Assembly: GCF_053078305.1 (NCBI RefSeq)
Contig: NZ_CP166879.1
Length of the DNA stretch: 64,000 bases
Strand: one strand, 5' to 3'
Positions 21,038-27,525 of this stretch are shown here, in pieces. Position 1 is the stretch's first letter, and each line of letters starts with the position of its first letter. Below the pieces are notes generated by a model. It was not told the DNA's origin. It saw only the letters and a list, made by a program, of their open reading frames with translations, and searched no databases. A program made the translations under genes and the position numbers.

Positions 21038-22651
21038 TCAATGCTTCACAATATACATAGTCCGACTGTACGCCACATCTTCAGGGTTATTAATGGGATA
21101 ACCTTTCAGCCACGGTTTGATTAATCGTCCATTGGTATATTGATAAATTGGTGCAATCGGTGCTTGCTCCATGAGGATTTTTTCTGCCGCGTTGTAATCG
21201 GCATTACGCGCTTTAACGGTATTTTCCGTCGATGCCTGGACCAGAACTTTGTCGTATGCCGGATTGTAAAAGCGTGAAATATTTCCTGAATGCGTTGACG
21301 TTAATAATGTCAGGAAAGTGGAGGGTTCATTATAATCCCCCACCCATGAGGCGCGGATAACATCAAAATTGCCGGTGTTACGGCTATCGATATAGGTTTT
21401 CCATTCCTGATTTTGCAATTTAACATCTACGCCAAGGTTCTTTTTCCACATCGATGCTACAGCAATCGCAATTTTTTGATGGTTTTCTGAAGTGTTATAC
21501 AAAAGCGTCAGCTTCAGCGGTTTTTGCGGACCATAACCAGCTGCGCTCAACAAAGTTTTTGCCTGCGCATTCAGTTCTTCCTGACTCATTTGTTCAAACG
21601 GCGAAGGTTCCGGCGTAAATCCGGCGGTAACATCTGGTGTAAAATGCCACGCTGGCTTTTCGCCCGTCCCTAATACTTTTTCGGTCATCAGGCGGCGATC
21701 TATCGTCATACTTAATGCCAGACGAACGCGCTGATCTGCCGTCGGCCCTTTTTGCGTGTTAAACGCATAATAATAGGTCCCGAGCTGCGGCGGCGTATAA
21801 ACCTGCCCCGGAATATCCTTCAACAGCTTCTGATACATATTTTTCGGGAAGGATTCGGTGATATCAATATCCCCCGCGAGGTAACGCTTAGTGGCTGCGG
21901 ATTCCTGATTAATTGGCAGGAAGGTCACTTTTTGCAGTACCGTTTTGGCGTTATCCCAATAATGGGTATTCGGTACCACGACCAGTTTTTCATTGACTAC
22001 GCGCTCTTTAAGAACATAAGCGCCATTGCCGATCAGATTTCCGGGTTTCGTCCACTCTTTACCGCTTTCTACGTTGGCTTTTTGCACCGGGAAGAAGGCA
22101 AAGTTAGCGGTTAAATTCACAAACCACGGCAACGGTTTATCAAGCTGAATTTTCAAAGTATGGGCATCAACTGCGGTGACGCCAAGCTGGTCAGGCGTAG
22201 CTTTACCATCAATAATCGCCTGTGCGTTGTTGATTCCCGCCAGCGCGGCAAACCATGCAAATGGCGATAGCGTTTTCGGGTCCACCAGACGCTGCCAGCT
22301 GTAGACAAAATCTTGCGCCGTTACCGGTGTGCCATCCGCCCATTTTGCGTTATCGCGCAGGGTAAAAGTCCAGATACGGTTGTCATTACTTTTCCACTGA
22401 GTCGCAACGCCGGGGACAATCTCCCCTTTCTCGTTCTGATTCACCAGTCCTTCAAACAGATCGCGAATGACCTGAATCTCTGGCAGGCCCACGGCTTTAG
22501 CGGGATCCAGCGACGCAGGCTCATCTTTAATGTGGCGCACCAGCTCCTGCTTCTCTGCCAGTACTGTGCCGCTCGGAACTTCTGCAGCATACGAAAGAGA
22601 AATGCTGCTGACCAACAGCGCACAACACGTGACTGAAACAGAGTGCTTCAT
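21038..22651 (-). CDS. mppA: Periplasmic murein tripeptide-binding protein MppA (SBP family 5), 537 aa
   Basis: Signal peptide MKHSVSVTCCALLVSSISLSYA and an OppA-like fold. Start at MKHSV preceded by GAGGGAAA. Confidence 0.85.
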   Translation of the reverse strand: MKHSVSVTCCALLVSSISLSYAAEVPSGTVLAEKQELVRHIKDEPASLDPAKAVGLPEIQVIRDLFEGLVNQNEKGEIVPGVATQWKSNDNRIWTFTLRDNAKWADGTPVTAQDFVYSWQRLVDPKTLSPFAWFAALAGINNAQAIIDGKATPDQLGVTAVDAHTLKIQLDKPLPWFVNLTANFAFFPVQKANVESGKEWTKPGNLIGNGAYVLKERVVNEKLVVVPNTHYWDNAKTVLQKVTFLPINQESAATKRYLAGDIDITESFPKNMYQKLLKDIPGQVYTPPQLGTYYYAFNTQKGPTADQRVRLALSMTIDRRLMTEKVLGTGEKPAWHFTPDVTAGFTPEPSPFEQMSQEELNAQAKTLLSAAGYGPQKPLKLTLLYNTSENHQKIAIAVASMWKKNLGVDVKLQNQEWKTYIDSRNTGNFDVIRASWVGDYNEPSTFLTLLTSTHSGNISRFYNPAYDKVLVQASTENTVKARNADYNAAEKILMEQAPIAPIYQYTNGRLIKPWLKGYPINNPEDVAYSRTMYIVKH

Positions 22652-22987
22652 AAGTTTCCCTCTAACCGACATTAAAATTGATGCGTAATTATTTGTTTCG
22701 CCTTAAAGAAATGCAAACAACTTCCATCAAAAAAGTGACACAGGAAGCATAAAATGTTTTATGTATCAATATATTAAATCAGATTTAGTGTAAATAATAG
22801 ACGCCAAAATGCGGCAAAGCACATAGAACACCGAACACTACGTTCGGGCTTCGCACGTTCAAACCAGTTTTCGGTATCATAATCAGCATCTGTCGCCATT
22901 GTACGAAGAATAAAAAATAACCAAAACGTTGAAAGGAACTGAGAATACGTTAAGAGAAGAATTAAATTAATGTATCAGCAAGTAGTG

Positions 22988-23887
22988 CTAAACAGCACCT
23001 TTATACTTCAGCCTATCTATAAATAATGAGAATGCCGAGCCAGCATGTCGACGGTGTGGATAGTACAGGTGATAACCGGGTAAATCTGGTGTGAATTTAT
23101 CCAAAACACGTATCAGTTTTTTTTCTTTAATAGCCCGCTCAACCTGATCATAAGGTAGATACGCCAATCCATGCCCATCAATTGCAGCATCAATGATCAG
23201 GTCTATCGTATTCAGTAAAAGCTGACCTTCCATGCGAACACGAACTTCACGTCCACCGCGTATTAATCTCCAGCGATTTGCTGTACCCGATGTGGGAAGA
23301 TACAAATTAACTGCCTGATGATCTATTAATTGTGACACTGACGTTGGAACACTTCGGCGGGAAAAATAATCCGGTGAGCCAACAATAGCCATTGGTATAT
23401 CTGGCCCGATTCGAATGGCGATCATATCTTTATCCATCTCCCCACCCAGACGGACGCCTGCATCAAAACGCTCAGAAACGACATCAGTCAAACCATAATC
23501 AATGATAAGCTGAATATCAATTTCAGGGTGTGATTTCAGGAATGTGCGCATGGCTGGTAACAATATCGTTTTTGCTGCATGTTCTACAGTAGTAATACGT
23601 ATTGTCCCGGATGGGCGGTTCTGCAGATCGCTCAGGGATGCCAGGGCAGAATCTATGTCATGCAGCATAGGGCCAAGAACAGACAAAAGATGCTCGCCCG
23701 CTTCAGTAGGTACAACACTGCGCGTGGTTCGCGTCAGAAGCCGCAATCCCAATCGTTCTTCTATACGGCGCACTATCTGGCTTAATGCTGACTGCGCCAT
23801 GCTCAGGCGGGCTGCTGCGCGAGTGAAGCTACGCTCCTCTGCAACGACGACAAACGCCATCAGATCAGCGATCTCTTCACGCTTCAT
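22988..23887 (-). CDS. pgrR: LysR-family regulator PgrR (YcjZ), 299 aa
   Basis: LysR HTH (FTRAAARLSMAQSALSQIVRRIE). Divergent from ycjY. Confidence 0.85.
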   Translation of the reverse strand: MKREEIADLMAFVVVAEERSFTRAAARLSMAQSALSQIVRRIEERLGLRLLTRTTRSVVPTEAGEHLLSVLGPMLHDIDSALASLSDLQNRPSGTIRITTVEHAAKTILLPAMRTFLKSHPEIDIQLIIDYGLTDVVSERFDAGVRLGGEMDKDMIAIRIGPDIPMAIVGSPDYFSRRSVPTSVSQLIDHQAVNLYLPTSGTANRWRLIRGGREVRVRMEGQLLLNTIDLIIDAAIDGHGLAYLPYDQVERAIKEKKLIRVLDKFTPDLPGYHLYYPHRRHAGSAFSLFIDRLKYKGAV

Positions 23888-23912
23888 TTAGTATCTCCAT
23901 ACAATCTATTAA

Positions 23913-23926
23913 TCATTTAAATGATA
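23913..23926. promoter_or_regulatory. Perfect 14-bp palindrome ATCATTTAAATGAT in the pgrR/ycjY divergent promoter region; candidate operator
   Basis: The sequence is its own reverse complement. It is followed by two direct repeats of GGTCTAATCA at 23928-23937 and 23946-23955. Confidence 0.3.
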
Positions 23927-24024
23927 GGTCTAATCATGATTTTGGGTCTAATCAACTTAATGATCAATATCTATAGTGATATAACCAACCGTTAAAACGA
24001 ACCAACAACTCCATGAGGAACGGA

Positions 24025-24945
24025 ATGATGAATAATAAAGTCAGCTTCACTAACAGCAATAATCCAACCATCTCTTTGTCTGCAGTGATCTATTTTCCTC
24101 CAAAATTTGATGAAACCCGTCAATATCCGGCAATTGTGGTATCTCACCCAGGTGGGGGCGTTAAAGAACAAACGGCCGGAACTTATGCCGAAAAACTGGC
24201 GGAAAAGGGATTTGTCACTATTGCTTATGACGCATCTTATCAAGGTGAAAGTGGCGGCGAGCCGCGTCAGTTAGAAAACCCATACATTCGTACTGAAGAC
24301 ATCAGTGCCGTGATTGATTACCTGACAACGCTTTCTTATGTCGACAATACCCGAATTGGTGCGATGGGAATTTGTGCCGGTGCAGGATATACAGCCAATG
24401 CTGCAATTCAGGATCGCCGCATCAAGGCCATCGGTACCGTTAGTGCGGTCAATATTGGTTCGATGTTCCGTAATGGTTGGGAAAACAATGTGAAATCTAT
24501 TGATGCCCTGCCATACGTTGAAGCGGGTTCAAACGCCAGAACCAGCGATATTAGCAGCGGAGAATACGCCATTATGCCACTGGCACCAATGAAGGAGTCC
24601 GATGCGCCGAACGAAGAACTGCGTCAGGCCTGGGAGTATTACCACACCCCTCGCGCGCAGTATCCAACAGCACCGGGTTACGCTACTTTGCGCAGCCTTA
24701 ACCAGATTATTACCTATGATGCTTACCATATGGCGGAAGTGTACCTGACTCAGCCGACGCAGATTGTGGCGGGCAGCCAGGCAGGGAGCAAATGGATGAG
24801 TGACGACCTGTACGATCGGGCATCAAGCCAGGATAAACGCTATCACATTGTTGAAGGCGCAAACCATATGGATCTTTATGACGGCAAAGCCTATGTGGCT
24901 GAAGCAATTTCAGTATTAGCTCCGTTCTTTGAGGAAACTCTGTAA
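24025..24945 (+). CDS. ycjY: Alpha/beta hydrolase, dienelactone-hydrolase-like with a Cys nucleophile elbow, 306 aa
   Basis: G-x-C-x-G nucleophile motif (GICAGAG). Start at MMNNK with GAGGA upstream. The stop overlaps the next gene start. Confidence 0.8.
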   Translation: MMNNKVSFTNSNNPTISLSAVIYFPPKFDETRQYPAIVVSHPGGGVKEQTAGTYAEKLAEKGFVTIAYDASYQGESGGEPRQLENPYIRTEDISAVIDYLTTLSYVDNTRIGAMGICAGAGYTANAAIQDRRIKAIGTVSAVNIGSMFRNGWENNVKSIDALPYVEAGSNARTSDISSGEYAIMPLAPMKESDAPNEELRQAWEYYHTPRAQYPTAPGYATLRSLNQIITYDAYHMAEVYLTQPTQIVAGSQAGSKWMSDDLYDRASSQDKRYHIVEGANHMDLYDGKAYVAEAISVLAPFFEETL

Positions 24946-25874
24946 TGAAACATATTCAAATCCGCAATAGTGATATGGCCTGGCATATTGCTGCCAATAT
25001 TCAGTTTCCACCAAATTTTGATGAGTCAAAACAGTATCCGGCGATTATCAGCGTCCATCCTTTTGGCAGTTGTAAGGAGCAGACGTCTGGCAATATCTAT
25101 GGCAAGGCATTGGCTGAAAAAGGCTATGTCGTTCTCGCTTATGACGCCAGTTTCCAGGGAGAATCTGGTGGGGAGCCTCGTTGGATAGAAGATCCGACAC
25201 AGCGCGTAGAGGATATTAGCCGTGTTATCGATTATGCAGTAACTCTGCCATATGTTGATGCTGAACGCATTGGCGTGCTGGGTGTGTGTGGGGGGGGTGG
25301 CTATGCCATTAATGCCGCGCTGACAGAAAAACGAATTAAAGCTGTAGTGAGTATTACGGGTGTTAATATCGGGCGTCTTTTTCGGGAAGGTTTCAGCAAT
25401 TACGATCCGATTGGCGCATTGAATGCAATGGCGTCGCAACGAACCAAAGAGGCTCGTGGTGGAGAATTACAGATCAACGAATTACTTCCCGCCAGCCTGG
25501 ATGCAGCAAAAGCCCATGGACTGACCGAACGCGATGTTTATGAAGCAACTGACTACTATAAAACACCACGCGGGCAACAACCGGGAGGTGCGACAAAAAT
25601 GTTGTTCTCACATGCACAGAAAACGCTGGCCTGGGATGCCTTCGCATTTACTGAAGTGTTACTGACTCAGCCGGTGATGGTAGTAGTTGGTGAAAAAGTC
25701 GGTGCCTTCGGTGCTTATCGTGATGGACTGGAAGTCTATGGCCGGGCGATGGTTTCGCAGGATCGTCAGTTAGTTTCATTACCCGATTTCTCACATTATG
25801 AACTGTATGACAAACCGGAAGCAGTTCAGGAGGCGCTGGAAAAAGTTATTCCTTTTTTCAACACCCATCTGTGA
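24945..25874 (+). CDS. Second, tandem alpha/beta hydrolase paralogous to ycjY, 309 aa, intact
   Basis: Alignable with YcjY over its whole length (shared blocks AYDASxQGESGGEPR, EDISxVIDY, RIKA). Nucleophile motif GVCGGGG. Translationally coupled via TAATG. May correspond to the locus annotated as a remnant (ymjD) in K-12, from memory. Confidence 0.75.
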   Translation: MKHIQIRNSDMAWHIAANIQFPPNFDESKQYPAIISVHPFGSCKEQTSGNIYGKALAEKGYVVLAYDASFQGESGGEPRWIEDPTQRVEDISRVIDYAVTLPYVDAERIGVLGVCGGGGYAINAALTEKRIKAVVSITGVNIGRLFREGFSNYDPIGALNAMASQRTKEARGGELQINELLPASLDAAKAHGLTERDVYEATDYYKTPRGQQPGGATKMLFSHAQKTLAWDAFAFTEVLLTQPVMVVVGEKVGAFGAYRDGLEVYGRAMVSQDRQLVSLPDFSHYELYDKPEAVQEALEKVIPFFNTHL

Positions 25875-25894
25875 TAAGTTTCATGAGAAATATT

Positions 25895-26532
25895 ATGAAA
25901 AATGTACTCATTCTTGGTGCTGGCGGTCAGATAGCCCGCCATGTGATTAATCAACTGGCAGATAAACAAACCATTAAACAAACTTTATTTGCTCGTCAGC
26001 CAGCAAAAATACACAAACCCTATCCAACTAATAGCCAGATTATTATGGGGGATGTACTGAATCATGCAGCACTGAAGCAGGCCATGCAGGGACAGGATAT
26101 TGTGTATGCCAACCTTACGGGGGAAGATTTAGATATTCAGGCAAATTCAGTGATCGCTGCGATGAAAGCCTGTGATGTTAAACGTCTGATCTTTGTTCTT
26201 TCCCTCGGCATTTATGATGAAGTTCCAGGAAAATTTGGCGAATGGAATAATGCAGTTATTGGTGAGCCCCTAAACCATTCCGCAGGGCTGCGGATGCAAT
26301 TGAGGCTTCTGGACTGGAATATACAATTCTTCGCCCTGCCTGGCTGACGGATGAAGATATTATTGATTATGAGCTTACCTCACGCAATGAACCATTCAAA
26401 GGTACGATCGTATCACGTAAGAGTGTCGCAGCATTAATTACAGATATCATCGATAAACCTGAGAAACACATTGGTGAGAATATAGGCATCAATCAACCCG
26501 GGACTGATGGCGACAAGCCATTCTTCATGTAA
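25895..26532 (+). pseudogene. ymjC: NAD(P)-binding NmrA/SDR-like protein interrupted by a frameshift (ymjC-like)
   Basis: Rossmann motif ILGAGGQIARH. The frame runs to a stop at 26347, but a different frame continues as ...KPFRRAADAIEASGLEYTILRPAWLTDEDIIDYELT... to 26532. The shift maps to about 26265-26276 (gagcccctaaacc). Start codon uncertain (25883 or 25895). Confidence 0.55.
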
Positions 26533-26822
26533 ATCAATTATATAGCCACCATCGTACTGTACTATGTGCAGTACGATTTATTAAACTTATTAAGGTGAAC
26601 TGATCAATCAGATGCGATTAACATGTGTAGAACCAGTAAGAATAAAATACGCCATGTATATAACATTACGACAATTCTAATATCTGCACATCAATAAAAA
26701 TACAAACAACTTCCGGCAAAAAAGTGATACAAGATCGATGACATAGCGTTGAAGAAAAGGATTTGATAATCCGCAAAATTTGCACAACACTGCCTGTAAT
26801 ACTTCCTGAACCAGAGACGATC

Positions 26823-27525
26823 ATGACCGTAACCCGCCCACGCGCCGAACGCGGCGCATTTCCGCCCGGAACAGAACATTACGGACGTTCATTATTGGGC
26901 GCGCCGTTAATCTGGTTTCCGGCCCCTGCAGCCAGTCGCGAAAGTGGTTTGATTCTGGCTGGCACTCACGGTGATGAAAACTCTTCGGTCGTCACGCTCT
27001 CCTGTGCTCTGCGGACTTTGACACCTTCTTTGCGCCGCCATCATGTGGTGCTGTGTGTGAATCCTGACGGCTGCCAGCTGGGGTTACGGGCCAATGCTAA
27101 TGGTGTGGATTTAAACAGAAACTTTCCGGCGGCAAACTGGAAGGAAGGTGAAACGGTTTATCGCTGGAACAGCGCCGCTGAAGAACGTGATGTCGTATTA
27201 CTGACTGGTGACAAACCTGGCTCCGAACCTGAAACCCAGGCGCTGTGCCAGCTTATACACCGCATTCAACCTGCCTGGGTGGTCTCATTCCACGATCCAC
27301 TGGCCTGTATTGAAGATCCCAGACACAGCGAATTAGGCGAATGGCTGGCTCAGGCGTTTGAATTGCCTCTGGTAACCAGCGTCGGTTATGAAACGCCTGG
27401 CTCTTTCGGCAGTTGGTGTGCAGATCTGAACTTGCATTGCATCACCGCAGAGTTTCCGCCCATCTCCTCCGACGAAGCCAGCGAAAAATATCTCTTTGCG
27501 ATGGCAAACTTGCTGCGCTGGCATC

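What the first reader, a model, noticed from the sequence alone, without database searches (positions are those of the whole stretch)
24025..25874. Tandem, translationally coupled Cys-type alpha/beta hydrolase paralogs next to pgrR
Two adjacent genes (306 and 309 aa) are clearly paralogous, sharing blocks such as AYDASxQGESGGEPR and EDISxVIDY. Both carry a G-x-C-x-G nucleophile elbow (GICAGAG, GVCGGGG), indicating a cysteine nucleophile as in dienelactone hydrolases. The second starts on the stop codon of the first (TAATG). From memory, K-12 keeps only ycjY intact and carries a remnant (ymjD) where the second copy would be, so this strain appears to preserve an ancestral two-enzyme arrangement. 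They sit with mpaA and the NmrA-like gene under the peptidoglycan-recycling regulator PgrR, and their substrates are unknown.
Basis: partly seen in the sequence, partly recalled or inferred. Interest (0 to 1): 0.55.

Follow-up and report, generated by a model that had tools for sequence, protein, structure and literature searches.

The report
Mobile paired cysteine-hydrolase cassette in E. coli
The two adjacent hydrolase genes are real, but they belong to an old, horizontally spreading four-gene cassette that landed between two cell-wall-recycling genes in E. coli and is now being lost, so their link to cell-wall recycling is probably an accident of position.

Summary
ycjY (24025-24945) and a second gene, here called P2 (24945-25874), are 43% identical. 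They overlap by TAATG, and each has Cys in the nucleophile elbow and a conserved His after strand beta8. K-12 keeps only ycjY plus ymjD, the product of a clean in-frame 867-bp deletion (window 25000-25866).

The interpretation needs revision. pgrR, ycjY, P2 and the NmrA-like gene form a 3.99-kb low-GC islet flanked by 37-bp direct repeats, inserted between mppA and mpaA. An empty site occurs in 174 of 5,426 E. coli genomes. The same cassette occurs in Serratia, Klebsiella (including a conjugative plasmid) and Afipia. The YcjY-P2 pair is adjacent in 62 of 80 loci spanning several phyla, and none of these has an MpaA homologue nearby.

In E. coli, P2 is decaying. It is deleted in about three quarters of genomes, frameshifted at a poly-G tract next to the Cys codon in many O157-clade genomes, and interrupted by an IS element in one. 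In this window the NmrA-like gene is itself frameshifted.

The substrate is unknown. Neighbouring reductase genes and the closest structures suggest an activated ester, lactone or thioester. The family is known structurally (PDB 5XB6, 2HDW), so interest is modest.

The parts
22709..22745 (.). Left 37-bp direct repeat that bounds the islet (AAATGCAAACAACTTCCATCAAAAAAGTGACACAGGA).
   Evidence: the repeat finder family D2 has two copies at 86% identity, spaced 3989 bp apart. Empty-site genomes carry a single copy.
22816..22890 (-). Fragment of a queH (epoxyqueuosine reductase) gene inside the islet, left of pgrR. It is probably donor-derived debris.
   Evidence: RefSeq annotates it as an incomplete pseudogene at the equivalent position in O157:H7 Z892, AR_0374 and other strains. 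Window coordinates were mapped from L001.
22988..23887 (-). pgrR (ycjZ), a LysR-type regulator transcribed divergently from ycjY. It is the cassette's own regulator.
   Evidence: ORF and RefSeq annotation. Orthologues at 84, 88 and 74% identity sit divergently next to the hydrolase pair in Serratia, Klebsiella and Afipia. A divergent LysR gene is present in 49 of 80 loci.
23912..23925 (.). Perfect inverted repeat ATCATTTAAATGAT in the pgrR-ycjY spacer. It is followed by two GGTCTAATCA repeats and is a candidate PgrR operator.
   Evidence: It is conserved in the spacers of Serratia, Klebsiella, Citrobacter and Shimwellia. Alphaproteobacteria have the analogous ATCACCTCAGTGAT followed by GTCTAATC. 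Binding was not tested here. Literature lists ycjY/ycjZ as a PgrR SELEX target (PMC5934670).
24025..24945 (+). ycjY, a 306-aa alpha/beta hydrolase. Cys117 is at codon 24373-24375 and His281 at codon 24865-24867.
   Evidence: It is 99% identical to PDB 5XB6.
24945..25874 (+). Second hydrolase, 'P2', 309 aa. Cys115 is at codon 25287-25289 and His284 at codon 25794-25796. Its start overlaps the ycjY stop (TAATG).
   Evidence: It is 99% identical to a protein cluster of 1,490 E. coli sequences. The AlphaFold model has pLDDT 95.3 and TM-score 0.92 to 5XB6.
25290..25297 (+). G8 homopolymer directly after the Cys115 codon, encoding Gly116-Gly118. It is in frame in this window.
   Evidence: O157:H7 Z892 has G9 and is annotated 'frameshifted'. 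Strain 141 has G10. Most other lineages have the interrupted form GGGGGTGGTGG. Exact matches number 86 genomes for the G8 64-mer and 222 for the G9 65-mer.
25000..25866 (+). The 867-bp segment (289 codons) that is missing in K-12 and in most E. coli. Its loss produces ymjD.
   Evidence: The junction is identical in K-12 MG1655 and strain 23AR0303. It retains P2 codons 1-18 and the last two codons.
25895..26532 (+). NmrA-like / atypical SDR gene, the full-length form of the K-12 ymjC remnant. It is disrupted in this window by a 1-base deletion at about 26271.
   Evidence: The gene is intact (212 aa) in O157 Z892 and AR_0374. The window's AAA variant matches none of the 2,924 genomes that carry this segment. 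The intact protein is nearly identical to PDB 3QVO, 'NmrA family protein'.
26698..26734 (.). Right 37-bp direct repeat that bounds the islet. The native mpaA upstream region follows it.

Best explanation
**What it is.** The two genes are the core of an old, self-contained and horizontally mobile module. The module consists of a LysR regulator (PgrR), a YcjY-type hydrolase and a P2-type hydrolase. It often also includes an NmrA-like NAD(P)-binding reductase.

**Shown**
- The two hydrolases diverged long before E. coli existed, and they travel together.
- In E. coli the module arrived as a 3.99-kb low-GC islet between mppA and mpaA.
- The module is now eroding in E. coli. P2 is deleted, frameshifted or IS-disrupted in most strains. 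The reductase is truncated in K-12-like strains and frameshifted in this window.

**Inferred mechanism**
- Both enzymes use the elbow Cys, activated by the conserved His after beta8. They attack an activated carbonyl (ester, lactone or thioester) and form a thio-acyl enzyme that is then hydrolysed or transferred.
- They act on the same pathway, either as a hetero-oligomer or in consecutive steps.
- The product passes to the NAD(P)H- and flavin-dependent reductases that accompany the pair in many genomes.
- PgrR senses the substrate or a derivative and controls the divergent promoter through the conserved inverted repeat.
- The co-regulation of mpaA with ycjY described for K-12 would then be a by-product of the insertion and of the K-12 deletions, not the module's original role.
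For: **Paralogy and motifs**
-.

**Deletions in K-12**
- K-12 carries two deletions relative to the window.

**The islet**
- 37-bp direct repeats lie at 22709-22745 and 26698-26734.
- An empty site, with mppA and mpaA 182 bp apart and one repeat copy, occurs in 174 of 5,426 genomes.
- Islet GC is 44.8% against 50.8% for the window. GC3 is 40-46% in the cassette genes against 51-54% in the flanking genes.

**The cassette elsewhere**
- Identity to PgrR / YcjY / P2 / SDR is 84/93/85/80% in Serratia marcescens, 88/93/87/83% in Klebsiella variicola and 74/80/81/67% in Afipia carboxidovorans.
- It sits on a conjugative IncFIB/IncFII Klebsiella plasmid next to an IS110 transposase.

**Pair conservation**
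- P2 orthologues at 61-89% identity occur in Proteobacteria, Actinobacteria, Bacteroidota and Nitrospira.
- A YcjY orthologue is adjacent in 62 of 80 loci, a divergent LysR gene in 49 of 80 and the NmrA-like SDR in 15 of 80.
- No MpaA homologue was found in any of the 80 loci.
- OYE, flavodoxin, SDR and AKR genes recur next to the pair.

**Catalytic residues**
- Cys115 and His284 are each present in 62 of 69 representatives.
- The model places Cys in the elbow and His after beta8.

**Structural neighbours**
- The closest are 5XB6 and 2HDW. Next come the thioesterase DcsB and the alpha/beta hydrolase GrgF. A preprint describes GrgF as a cysteine hydrolase.
- The best NCBIfam hit is the AHL lactonase UilS, but it scores far below that model's cutoff.

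**Operator**
- The inverted repeat in the spacer is conserved along with the cassette.

**Possible heteromer**
- A linker fusion of YcjY and P2 with a paired alignment gave pTM 0.81 over 655 residues. This would fit a defined interface between the two domains.

**Erosion in E. coli**
-.
Against: - No substrate, activity or complex has been demonstrated.
- The third triad member could not be identified from sequence. The canonical post-beta7 position varies. The best candidate, Asp260 in P2 and Asp261 in YcjY, is conserved only within the two orthologous groups.
- The fusion pTM has no PAE output and no homodimer control, and the five models differ (mean pLDDT 63-78). YcjY crystallised alone with 12 chains, so a homo-oligomer interface could produce the same result.
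- About three quarters of E. coli keep ycjY without P2, and 18 of 80 loci have P2 without YcjY. Each enzyme can therefore persist alone.
- K-12 literature ties PgrR to murein-peptide genes (Shimada 2013, cited; the paper was not available to read). Overexpressing ycjY causes filamentation (PMC3614548). Both would fit a cell-wall link.
- The empty site could be a secondary deletion by recombination between the repeats, not the ancestral state. That would not change the conclusion that this is a discrete islet.
Confidence: 0.55

Rival explanations
1. The two hydrolases are accessory enzymes of peptidoglycan recycling. They act on murein-peptide-derived esters or lactones and are co-regulated with mpaA by PgrR.
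For: - In K-12 the operon is listed as ycjY-ymjDC-mpaA, and the ycjY/ycjZ spacer is a PgrR SELEX target.
- PgrR autoregulation has been confirmed.
- Overexpressing ycjY causes filamentation.
- The genes lie between mppA and mpaA-ycjG.
Against: - The four-gene unit is an insertion with direct repeats and low GC. In 174 genomes mppA and mpaA are directly adjacent without it.
- The same cassette in Serratia, Klebsiella and Afipia, and in 80 further loci, has no MpaA homologue nearby. It sits next to generic oxidoreductases instead.
- In full-length strains, about 290 bp separate the reductase gene from mpaA, and this stretch includes mpaA's native upstream sequence.
- P2 is lost in most E. coli.
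Confidence: 0.12
2. They are quorum-quenching N-acyl-homoserine lactonases of the UilS type.
For: - The best NCBIfam match for both proteins is NF047920, the UilS family (E = 4e-25 and 1e-21).
- UilS was annotated as a dienelactone hydrolase and degrades AHLs in Serratia (PMC11633161).
Against: - Scores of 89 and 78 bits are far below the curated cutoff of 400.
- Serratia marcescens carries this cassette as well, and the two cassette hydrolases there are orthologues of YcjY and P2. The cassette genes are therefore unlikely to be uilS itself; the UilS sequence was not compared directly.
- No luxR or luxI genes were seen next to the pair.
Confidence: 0.1
3. They are acyltransferases or polymerases of the PHA-synthase type. 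An older proposal held that the G-x-C-x-G proteins YcjY, YsgA and YghX make short-chain cPHB.
For: - The G-x-C-x-G box with Cys is shared with PHA synthases. The proposal is recorded in PMC3709699.
- The nearest characterised structural relatives, DcsB and GrgF, handle thioester-bound acyl chains.
Against: - No PhaC-specific Pfam domain was hit.
- The proteins are about half the size of PhaC (size from general knowledge).
- No phaA, phaB or phasin genes were found nearby.
- The neighbours are reductases and a substrate-type LysR or AraC regulator.
Confidence: 0.05
4. In E. coli the pair no longer has any function. The intact P2 in this window is simply a pseudogene that has not yet decayed.
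For: - P2 has been inactivated independently several times: the 867-bp deletion, G9 and G10 frameshifts, an ISEc20 insertion and IS1 replacement of the cassette.
- The SDR gene is frameshifted in this window.
- One O157 assembly has an internal stop in ycjY.
Against: - P2 in the window differs from the AR_0374 lineage by only about 3 residues, with no disruptive changes.
- About 873 genomes keep the non-slippery interrupted Gly codons.
- ycjY and pgrR are retained in nearly all genomes.
- Orthologues elsewhere are very strongly conserved.
Confidence: 0.15

Closest known systems
E. coli K-12 YcjY (PDB 5XB6) and Pseudomonas aeruginosa PA2218 (PDB 2HDW)
   Same: The first gene is YcjY itself (99% identity). 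P2 is 41-43% identical to it, with TM-score 0.92. PA2218 is about 30% identical, with TM-score 0.86. All three share the G-x-C-x-G elbow, the K-E-Q loop and the H-x-D/E-L-Y-D motif.
   Different: Neither structure has an assigned function, and I found no paper on either. P2 forms a distinct orthologous group with an extra invariant Cys43 (HPFGSCKEQ).
Dienelactone hydrolase (ClcD type, Pfam PF01738)
   Same: Both are alpha/beta hydrolases with a Cys nucleophile in the elbow and a His after the last strand. Both have a weak Pfam DLH match.
   Different: - The DLH match covers only model positions 10-129 of 217, at E = 6e-8 to 6e-9.
- YcjY and P2 carry a cap of about 100 residues (residues 142-239 in the model).
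- No acid equivalent to the DLH triad Asp could be identified.
- No chloroaromatic-pathway genes are nearby.
Fungal trans-acting polyketide alpha/beta hydrolases DcsB (7D78/7D79) and GrgF (6LZH)
   Same: These are the nearest characterised structural neighbours after 5XB6 and 2HDW (TM-score 0.71-0.78). A preprint describes GrgF as a cysteine hydrolase.
   Different: Sequence identity is only about 18%. They are fungal enzymes that work with PKS partners, and no PKS genes lie near the bacterial pair.
UilS AHL lactonase of Serratia marcescens (NCBIfam NF047920)
   Same: It is the best-scoring curated family for both proteins. It is a cytoplasmic enzyme annotated as a dienelactone hydrolase.
   Different: The scores of 78-89 bits are far below the cutoff of 400, so the two proteins are not members of that equivalog family.
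K-12 ycjY-ymjD-ymjC-mpaA operon under PgrR
   Same: Same chromosomal locus, same regulator gene and same first gene.
   Different: K-12 has lost 867 bp of P2 and about 660 bp covering the 3' part of the reductase gene and the spacer before mpaA. The window carries the undeleted form.

Membership tests
alpha/beta-hydrolase fold | The nucleophile sits in a sharp strand-turn-helix elbow (small-x-Nu-x-small). | tested here: met
   The motifs are G-I-C-A-G and G-V-C-G-G. In the model, strand 104-114 is followed by Cys115 and then helix 116-127. Cys115 aligns with residue Ser115 in the G-L-S-M-G-G motif of 8B4U.
alpha/beta-hydrolase fold | A catalytic His lies in the loop after the last core strand. 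| tested here: met
   His284 directly follows strand 274-283. It is conserved in 62 of 69 representatives.
alpha/beta-hydrolase fold | A catalytic acid follows strand beta7 and completes the triad. | tested here: inconclusive
   Position 250 is S27/E13/D12 and position 253 is G/D among 69 sequences. Asp260 in P2 and Asp261 in YcjY are conserved only within the two orthologous groups. No coordinates were available to measure geometry.
Dienelactone hydrolase family (Pfam PF01738) | A full-length, significant match to the DLH profile. | tested here: not met
   The matches are partial (model positions 10-129 of 217), at E = 5.7e-9 and 5.9e-8. They are weaker than the Peptidase_S15 matches.
Dienelactone hydrolase family (Pfam PF01738) | A Cys nucleophile. 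| tested here: met
   Cys117 and Cys115 sit in the elbow. Cys is present in 62 of 69 family representatives.
YcjY / PA2218 family (PDB 5XB6, 2HDW) | Full-length sequence and fold similarity. | tested here: met
   phmmer gives E = 1e-68 (P2) and 1e-203 (YcjY) against 5XB6. Foldseek TM-scores are 0.92 and 0.86.
UilS AHL lactonase (NCBIfam NF047920, equivalog) | A score at or above the curated cutoff of 400 bits. | tested here: not met
   The scores are 89.2 and 77.6 bits.
PHA synthase (PhaC) type acyltransferases | Homology to PhaC beyond the G-x-C-x-G box. | tested here: not met
   No PhaC-specific Pfam family appears among the hits.
PgrR regulon operon ycjY-ymjDC-mpaA (K-12) | The same locus, divergent from pgrR. 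| tested here: met
   The window is collinear with K-12 apart from the two deletions.
PgrR regulon operon ycjY-ymjDC-mpaA (K-12) | PgrR binding and co-transcription through to mpaA in the full-length allele. | not testable with these tools
   Only literature on K-12 is available. The promoter and terminator scan found no more sites than shuffled sequence.

The most novel reading that the evidence does not exclude
YcjY and P2 are an obligate partnership, either a hetero-oligomeric cysteine hydrolase or two consecutive steps, acting on a widespread but unidentified electrophilic ester or lactone. The partnership is conserved at 60-90% identity from Bacteroidota and Actinobacteria to Proteobacteria and spreads on plasmids. 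'PgrR' is really this module's substrate sensor. Its reported control of peptidoglycan recycling in K-12 would then be a side effect of the islet inserting between mppA and mpaA and of the later K-12 deletions.
Probability: 0.3. Interest if true: 0.55.

Novelty: new member of a known kind. Interest (0 to 1): 0.4.

Why it matters
YcjY and PgrR are K-12 genes whose roles are currently inferred from their position next to murein-peptide genes. If they belong to an inserted mobile cassette whose second enzyme K-12 has lost, two things follow.
- K-12 is the wrong strain for finding their function.
- The name and regulon assigned to PgrR need to be re-examined.

The cassette also defines a very widely distributed and unusually conserved pair of cysteine-type alpha/beta hydrolases with no known substrate. 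Crystal structures already exist, so the pair is a tractable target for enzyme discovery.

For E. coli population genomics, the locus is a compact example of repeated, independent gene loss. One route is a slippery G-tract that arose from a synonymous change beside the catalytic codon.

Tried and rejected
- **Literature.** Searches for 5XB6 and 2HDW and for DcsB found nothing useful. The primary PgrR paper (PMID 23301696) is not held.
- **Promoters and terminators.** The sigma-70 and terminator scan of 22650-26850 found no more sites than shuffled sequence. I make no promoter or terminator claims.
- **ORF clustering.** A first attempt to cluster neighbouring ORFs by greedy ORF selection failed. 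Long antisense ORFs in high-GC genomes displaced the real genes. I replaced it with tblastn of reference proteins.
- **Donor search.** Searching the fetched cassette loci (L008-L095) for the islet's left arm (22746-22987, containing the queH fragment) found no match outside E. coli.
- **NmrA-like protein.** Its only near-identical solved structure, 3QVO, has no assigned function, and no NCBIfam model matches it.
- **Recent duplication.** I considered a recent tandem duplication in E. coli and rejected it. Each paralogue has its own orthologues across phyla.
- **Phase variation.** I considered programmed phase variation at the G-tract. It remains unproven. The tract is restricted to the clade with O157:H7, O145 and O55:H7 strains, and length differences could partly be assembly errors.
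Full report
**1.

The window carries the E. coli segment ynaI, mppA, pgrR, ycjY, a second hydrolase, an NmrA-like gene, mpaA, ycjG, tpx and tyrR.
- ycjY runs 24025-24945 (306 aa). The second gene, which I call P2, runs 24945-25874 (309 aa).
- The ycjY stop (TAA, 24943-24945) overlaps the P2 start (ATG, 24945-24947), giving TAATG.
- The two proteins are 43% identical over 299 residues, E = 2e-72.
- Both carry G-x-C-x-G: Cys117 in YcjY and Cys115 in P2.
- The window's YcjY is 99% identical to K-12 YcjY, whose crystal structure is PDB 5XB6.

**2.

MG1655 has ycjY, ymjD (21 codons, starting on the ycjY stop) and ymjC (60 codons).
- Alignment shows two deletions relative to the window.
- The first deletion removes exactly 867 bp (window 25000-25866). 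It fuses P2 codons 1-18 in frame to the last two codons and produces ymjD.
- The junction is identical in K-12 and in an unrelated urinary isolate, which points to a single old event.
- The second deletion, roughly 26034-26692, removes the 3' part of the NmrA-like gene and most of the spacer before mpaA.

**3. Population picture in 5,426 complete E. coli genomes**

| Feature | Genomes |
|---|---|
| At least 80% of the 2.9-kb query (both hydrolases plus reductase gene) | 1,280 |
| A P2-internal 64-mer | 1,282 |
| A mid-reductase 68-mer | 2,924 |
| Empty site | 174 |

- By subtraction, about 24% have both hydrolases and about 30% have the 867-bp deletion only.
- Roughly 42% are K-12-like with both deletions, and about 3% lack the cassette.

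**4. P2 is also being lost by other routes**

- *The tract.* In most P2-bearing lineages the glycines after the catalytic Cys are encoded by TGT GGG GGT GGT GGC. In the clade with O157:H7, O145 and O55:H7 strains, a synonymous change makes a run of eight G (25290-25297 in the window).
- *Frameshifts.* O157:H7 Z892 has nine G and is annotated 'frameshifted'. Strain 141 has ten.
- *Counts.* Exact matches number 86 genomes for the G8 form and 222 for the G9 form. About 873 genomes have the interrupted form.
- *Other disruptions.* In O55:H7 DEC5E an ISEc20 element sits inside the tract. In strain NH-21 an IS1 replaces the cassette.
- *Caveat.* Some length differences could be homopolymer errors in assemblies.
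- *The reductase gene here.* The window's own NmrA-like gene has a 1-base deletion (AAA for AAAA at about 26271). None of the 2,924 genomes with that segment shares it. It is therefore a private mutation or a sequencing error.

**5. The four genes are one inserted islet**

- In the 174 empty-site genomes, mppA and mpaA are divergent neighbours 182 bp apart.
- That spacer contains one copy of a 37-bp sequence. In the window the sequence occurs twice, at 22709-22745 and 26698-26734 (32 of 37 identical), bracketing 3,989 bp.
- The bracketed segment holds a queH fragment, pgrR, ycjY, P2 and the NmrA-like gene.
- It has 44.8% GC against 50.8% for the window. GC3 is 40-46% in the cassette genes against 51-54% in the flanking genes.
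- Whether the empty site is ancestral or arose by recombination between the repeats, the unit is discrete and compositionally foreign.

**6. The same cassette exists elsewhere, without peptidoglycan genes**

Identity to the E. coli proteins:

| Organism | PgrR | YcjY | P2 | Reductase |
|---|---|---|---|---|
| Serratia marcescens | 84% | 93% | 85% | 80% |
| Klebsiella variicola | 88% | 93% | 87% | 83% |
| Afipia carboxidovorans (alphaproteobacterium) | 74% | 80% | 81% | 67% |

- Downstream genes in Serratia and Klebsiella are short-chain dehydrogenases, a flavodoxin-like protein and an old-yellow-enzyme flavin reductase.
- In Klebsiella pneumoniae the cassette lies on a conjugative IncFIB/IncFII plasmid beside an IS110 transposase.
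- A scan of one genome per species found relatives in 409 species. The best 80 loci (61-89% identity to P2) span Enterobacterales, Rhizobiales, Rhodobacterales, Acetobacteraceae, Xanthomonadales, Vibrio, Pseudoalteromonas, Burkholderiales, Pseudomonas, Actinobacteria, Bacteroidota and Nitrospira.
- In those 80 loci a YcjY orthologue (at least 60% identity) is adjacent in 62. It lies upstream of P2 in 57 and downstream in 5.
- A divergent LysR gene is present in 49, and in 31 of these it is at least 57% identical to PgrR. The NmrA-like gene is present in 15.
- Vibrio and Pseudoalteromonas use an AraC-type regulator and a flavodoxin-like gene instead.
- No MpaA homologue appeared in any of the 80 loci.
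- The TAATG overlap was seen only in Enterobacterales loci (confirmed by sequence in Serratia and Klebsiella). Elsewhere the spacer is mostly 25-150 bp.
- The pgrR-ycjY spacer is conserved with the cassette. It has a perfect inverted repeat, ATCATTTAAATGAT (23912-23925), and GTCTAATC motifs. Alphaproteobacteria have the analogous ATCACCTCAGTGAT.

**7. Enzymology, as far as sequence and models go**

- *Family size.* The family has 237 representative clusters at E < 1e-30.
- *Conserved residues.* Among 69 full-length representatives, Cys115 and His284 are each present in 62. Arg130 is invariant, and Lys44-Glu45-Gln46, Tyr204, Tyr205 and Tyr288 are nearly so.
- *Missing acid.* The canonical acid position after beta7 is not conserved.
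- *Model.* The P2 AlphaFold model is confident (pLDDT 95.3). It places Cys115 in the strand-helix elbow and His284 right after beta8, with a cap of about 100 residues between beta6 and beta7.
- *Structural neighbours.* In order they are 5XB6, 2HDW, an uncharacterised Chloroflexus hydrolase, the fungal thioesterase DcsB, GrgF and PET46.
- *Profile matches.* Pfam matches are weak and partial, to Peptidase_S15, DLH and Hydrolase_4. The best NCBIfam match, the UilS AHL lactonase, is far below its cutoff.
- *Conclusion.* A Cys-His catalytic pair is well supported. A DLH-type Cys-His-Asp triad is not shown.
- *Extra cysteine.* P2 orthologues have an additional invariant Cys43 in the loop that normally shapes the oxyanion hole. 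Its role is unknown.

**8. Do the two enzymes work together?**

- Their adjacency across phyla argues that they do.
- As a rough test I fused YcjY and P2 through a 40-residue Gly-Ser linker, built a paired alignment from 19 loci and ran AlphaFold. The result was pTM 0.81 over 655 residues, with the linker disordered.
- By my reasoning, two independent domains of this size would give a pTM near 0.5. The result therefore suggests a defined interface.
- No PAE output and no homodimer control were available, and the five models vary. I treat the result as a hint only.

**9. What is already known**

- YcjY's G-x-C-x-G box was noticed long ago and prompted a proposal that it polymerises cPHB.
- Overexpressing ycjY causes filamentation.
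- PgrR is described as a repressor of peptidoglycan-recycling genes, with ycjY-ymjDC-mpaA in its regulon. It is autoregulated.
- RefSeq already annotates 'alpha/beta hydrolase (x2)' at this locus in about a quarter of genomes.
- The finding is therefore not a new kind of system. The additions here are the cassette view, the islet boundaries, the repeated loss of P2 and the doubt about the peptidoglycan link.

**10. Verdict**

- The most likely account is a mobile, LysR-controlled pair of cysteine alpha/beta hydrolases acting on an activated ester, lactone or thioester. The products would pass to accompanying reductases. In E. coli the module was inserted by chance between mppA and mpaA and is now eroding.
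- The evolutionary part rests on direct sequence evidence. The chemistry and the partnership between the two enzymes are inferred.

Noticed in passing
window 25290-25297: A G8 run lies directly after the catalytic Cys codon of P2. It was created by a synonymous GGT-to-GGG change in the clade with O157:H7, O145 and O55:H7 strains. The G9 form (frameshift) matches exactly in 222 genomes, the G8 form in 86, and G10 also occurs. This could be a mutational hot spot or partly assembly error.
   Followed up: yes
window ~26271 (within 25895-26532): The NmrA-like / SDR gene has AAA where other strains have AAAA, which truncates it to 150 aa. None of the 2,924 genomes carrying this segment shares the variant.
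   Followed up: yes
window 22709-22745 and 26698-26734: Imperfect 37-bp direct repeats bracket the 3,989-bp pgrR-ycjY-P2-SDR islet. In 174 E. coli genomes (ST648 and others), mppA and mpaA are directly adjacent with a single repeat copy.
   Followed up: yes
window ~22816-22890: A 75-93-bp fragment of a queH gene lies inside the islet, to the left of pgrR. It may be a trace of the donor's gene order. No donor was found among the fetched loci.
   Followed up: partly
L007 (E. coli O55:H7 DEC5E) 1060-2500: An IS110-family element, ISEc20, is inserted exactly in the poly-G tract of P2, with G runs on both sides of the insertion. An IS110-family transposase also flanks the cassette on a Klebsiella plasmid (L095).
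   Followed up: partly
window 25869-25877: P2 ends ...THL-TGA in the window and in O157 Z892. In other lineages, and in the K-12 ymjD remnant, it ends ...HLG-TAA (GGA). The protein is therefore 309 aa instead of 310 aa.
   Followed up: yes
L097 (E. coli KE47 chromosome, near fdeC/ykgR): Some E. coli carry a third family member, 62% identical to P2. It sits with its own LysR gene, an NADH-dependent flavin oxidoreductase and two aldo/keto reductases, the same pairing of hydrolase with reductases.
   Followed up: partly
L096 (E. coli IncF plasmid pH22_122286): Conjugative IncF plasmids of E. coli carry a relative 52% identical to P2, together with a LysR gene and an SDR gene, next to IS100.
   Followed up: no
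window 25071-25073 (P2 Cys43): P2 orthologues have an invariant second cysteine in the loop after beta3 (HPFGSCKEQ), where YcjY orthologues have Val. It might be a redox partner of Cys115 or might be neutral. This could not be judged without coordinates.
   Followed up: no
L006 (E. coli O157:H7 TR01): This assembly has an intact G8 P2 but an internal stop in ycjY (Gln to stop at codon 269) and several other private changes. It may be a low-accuracy assembly.
   Followed up: no
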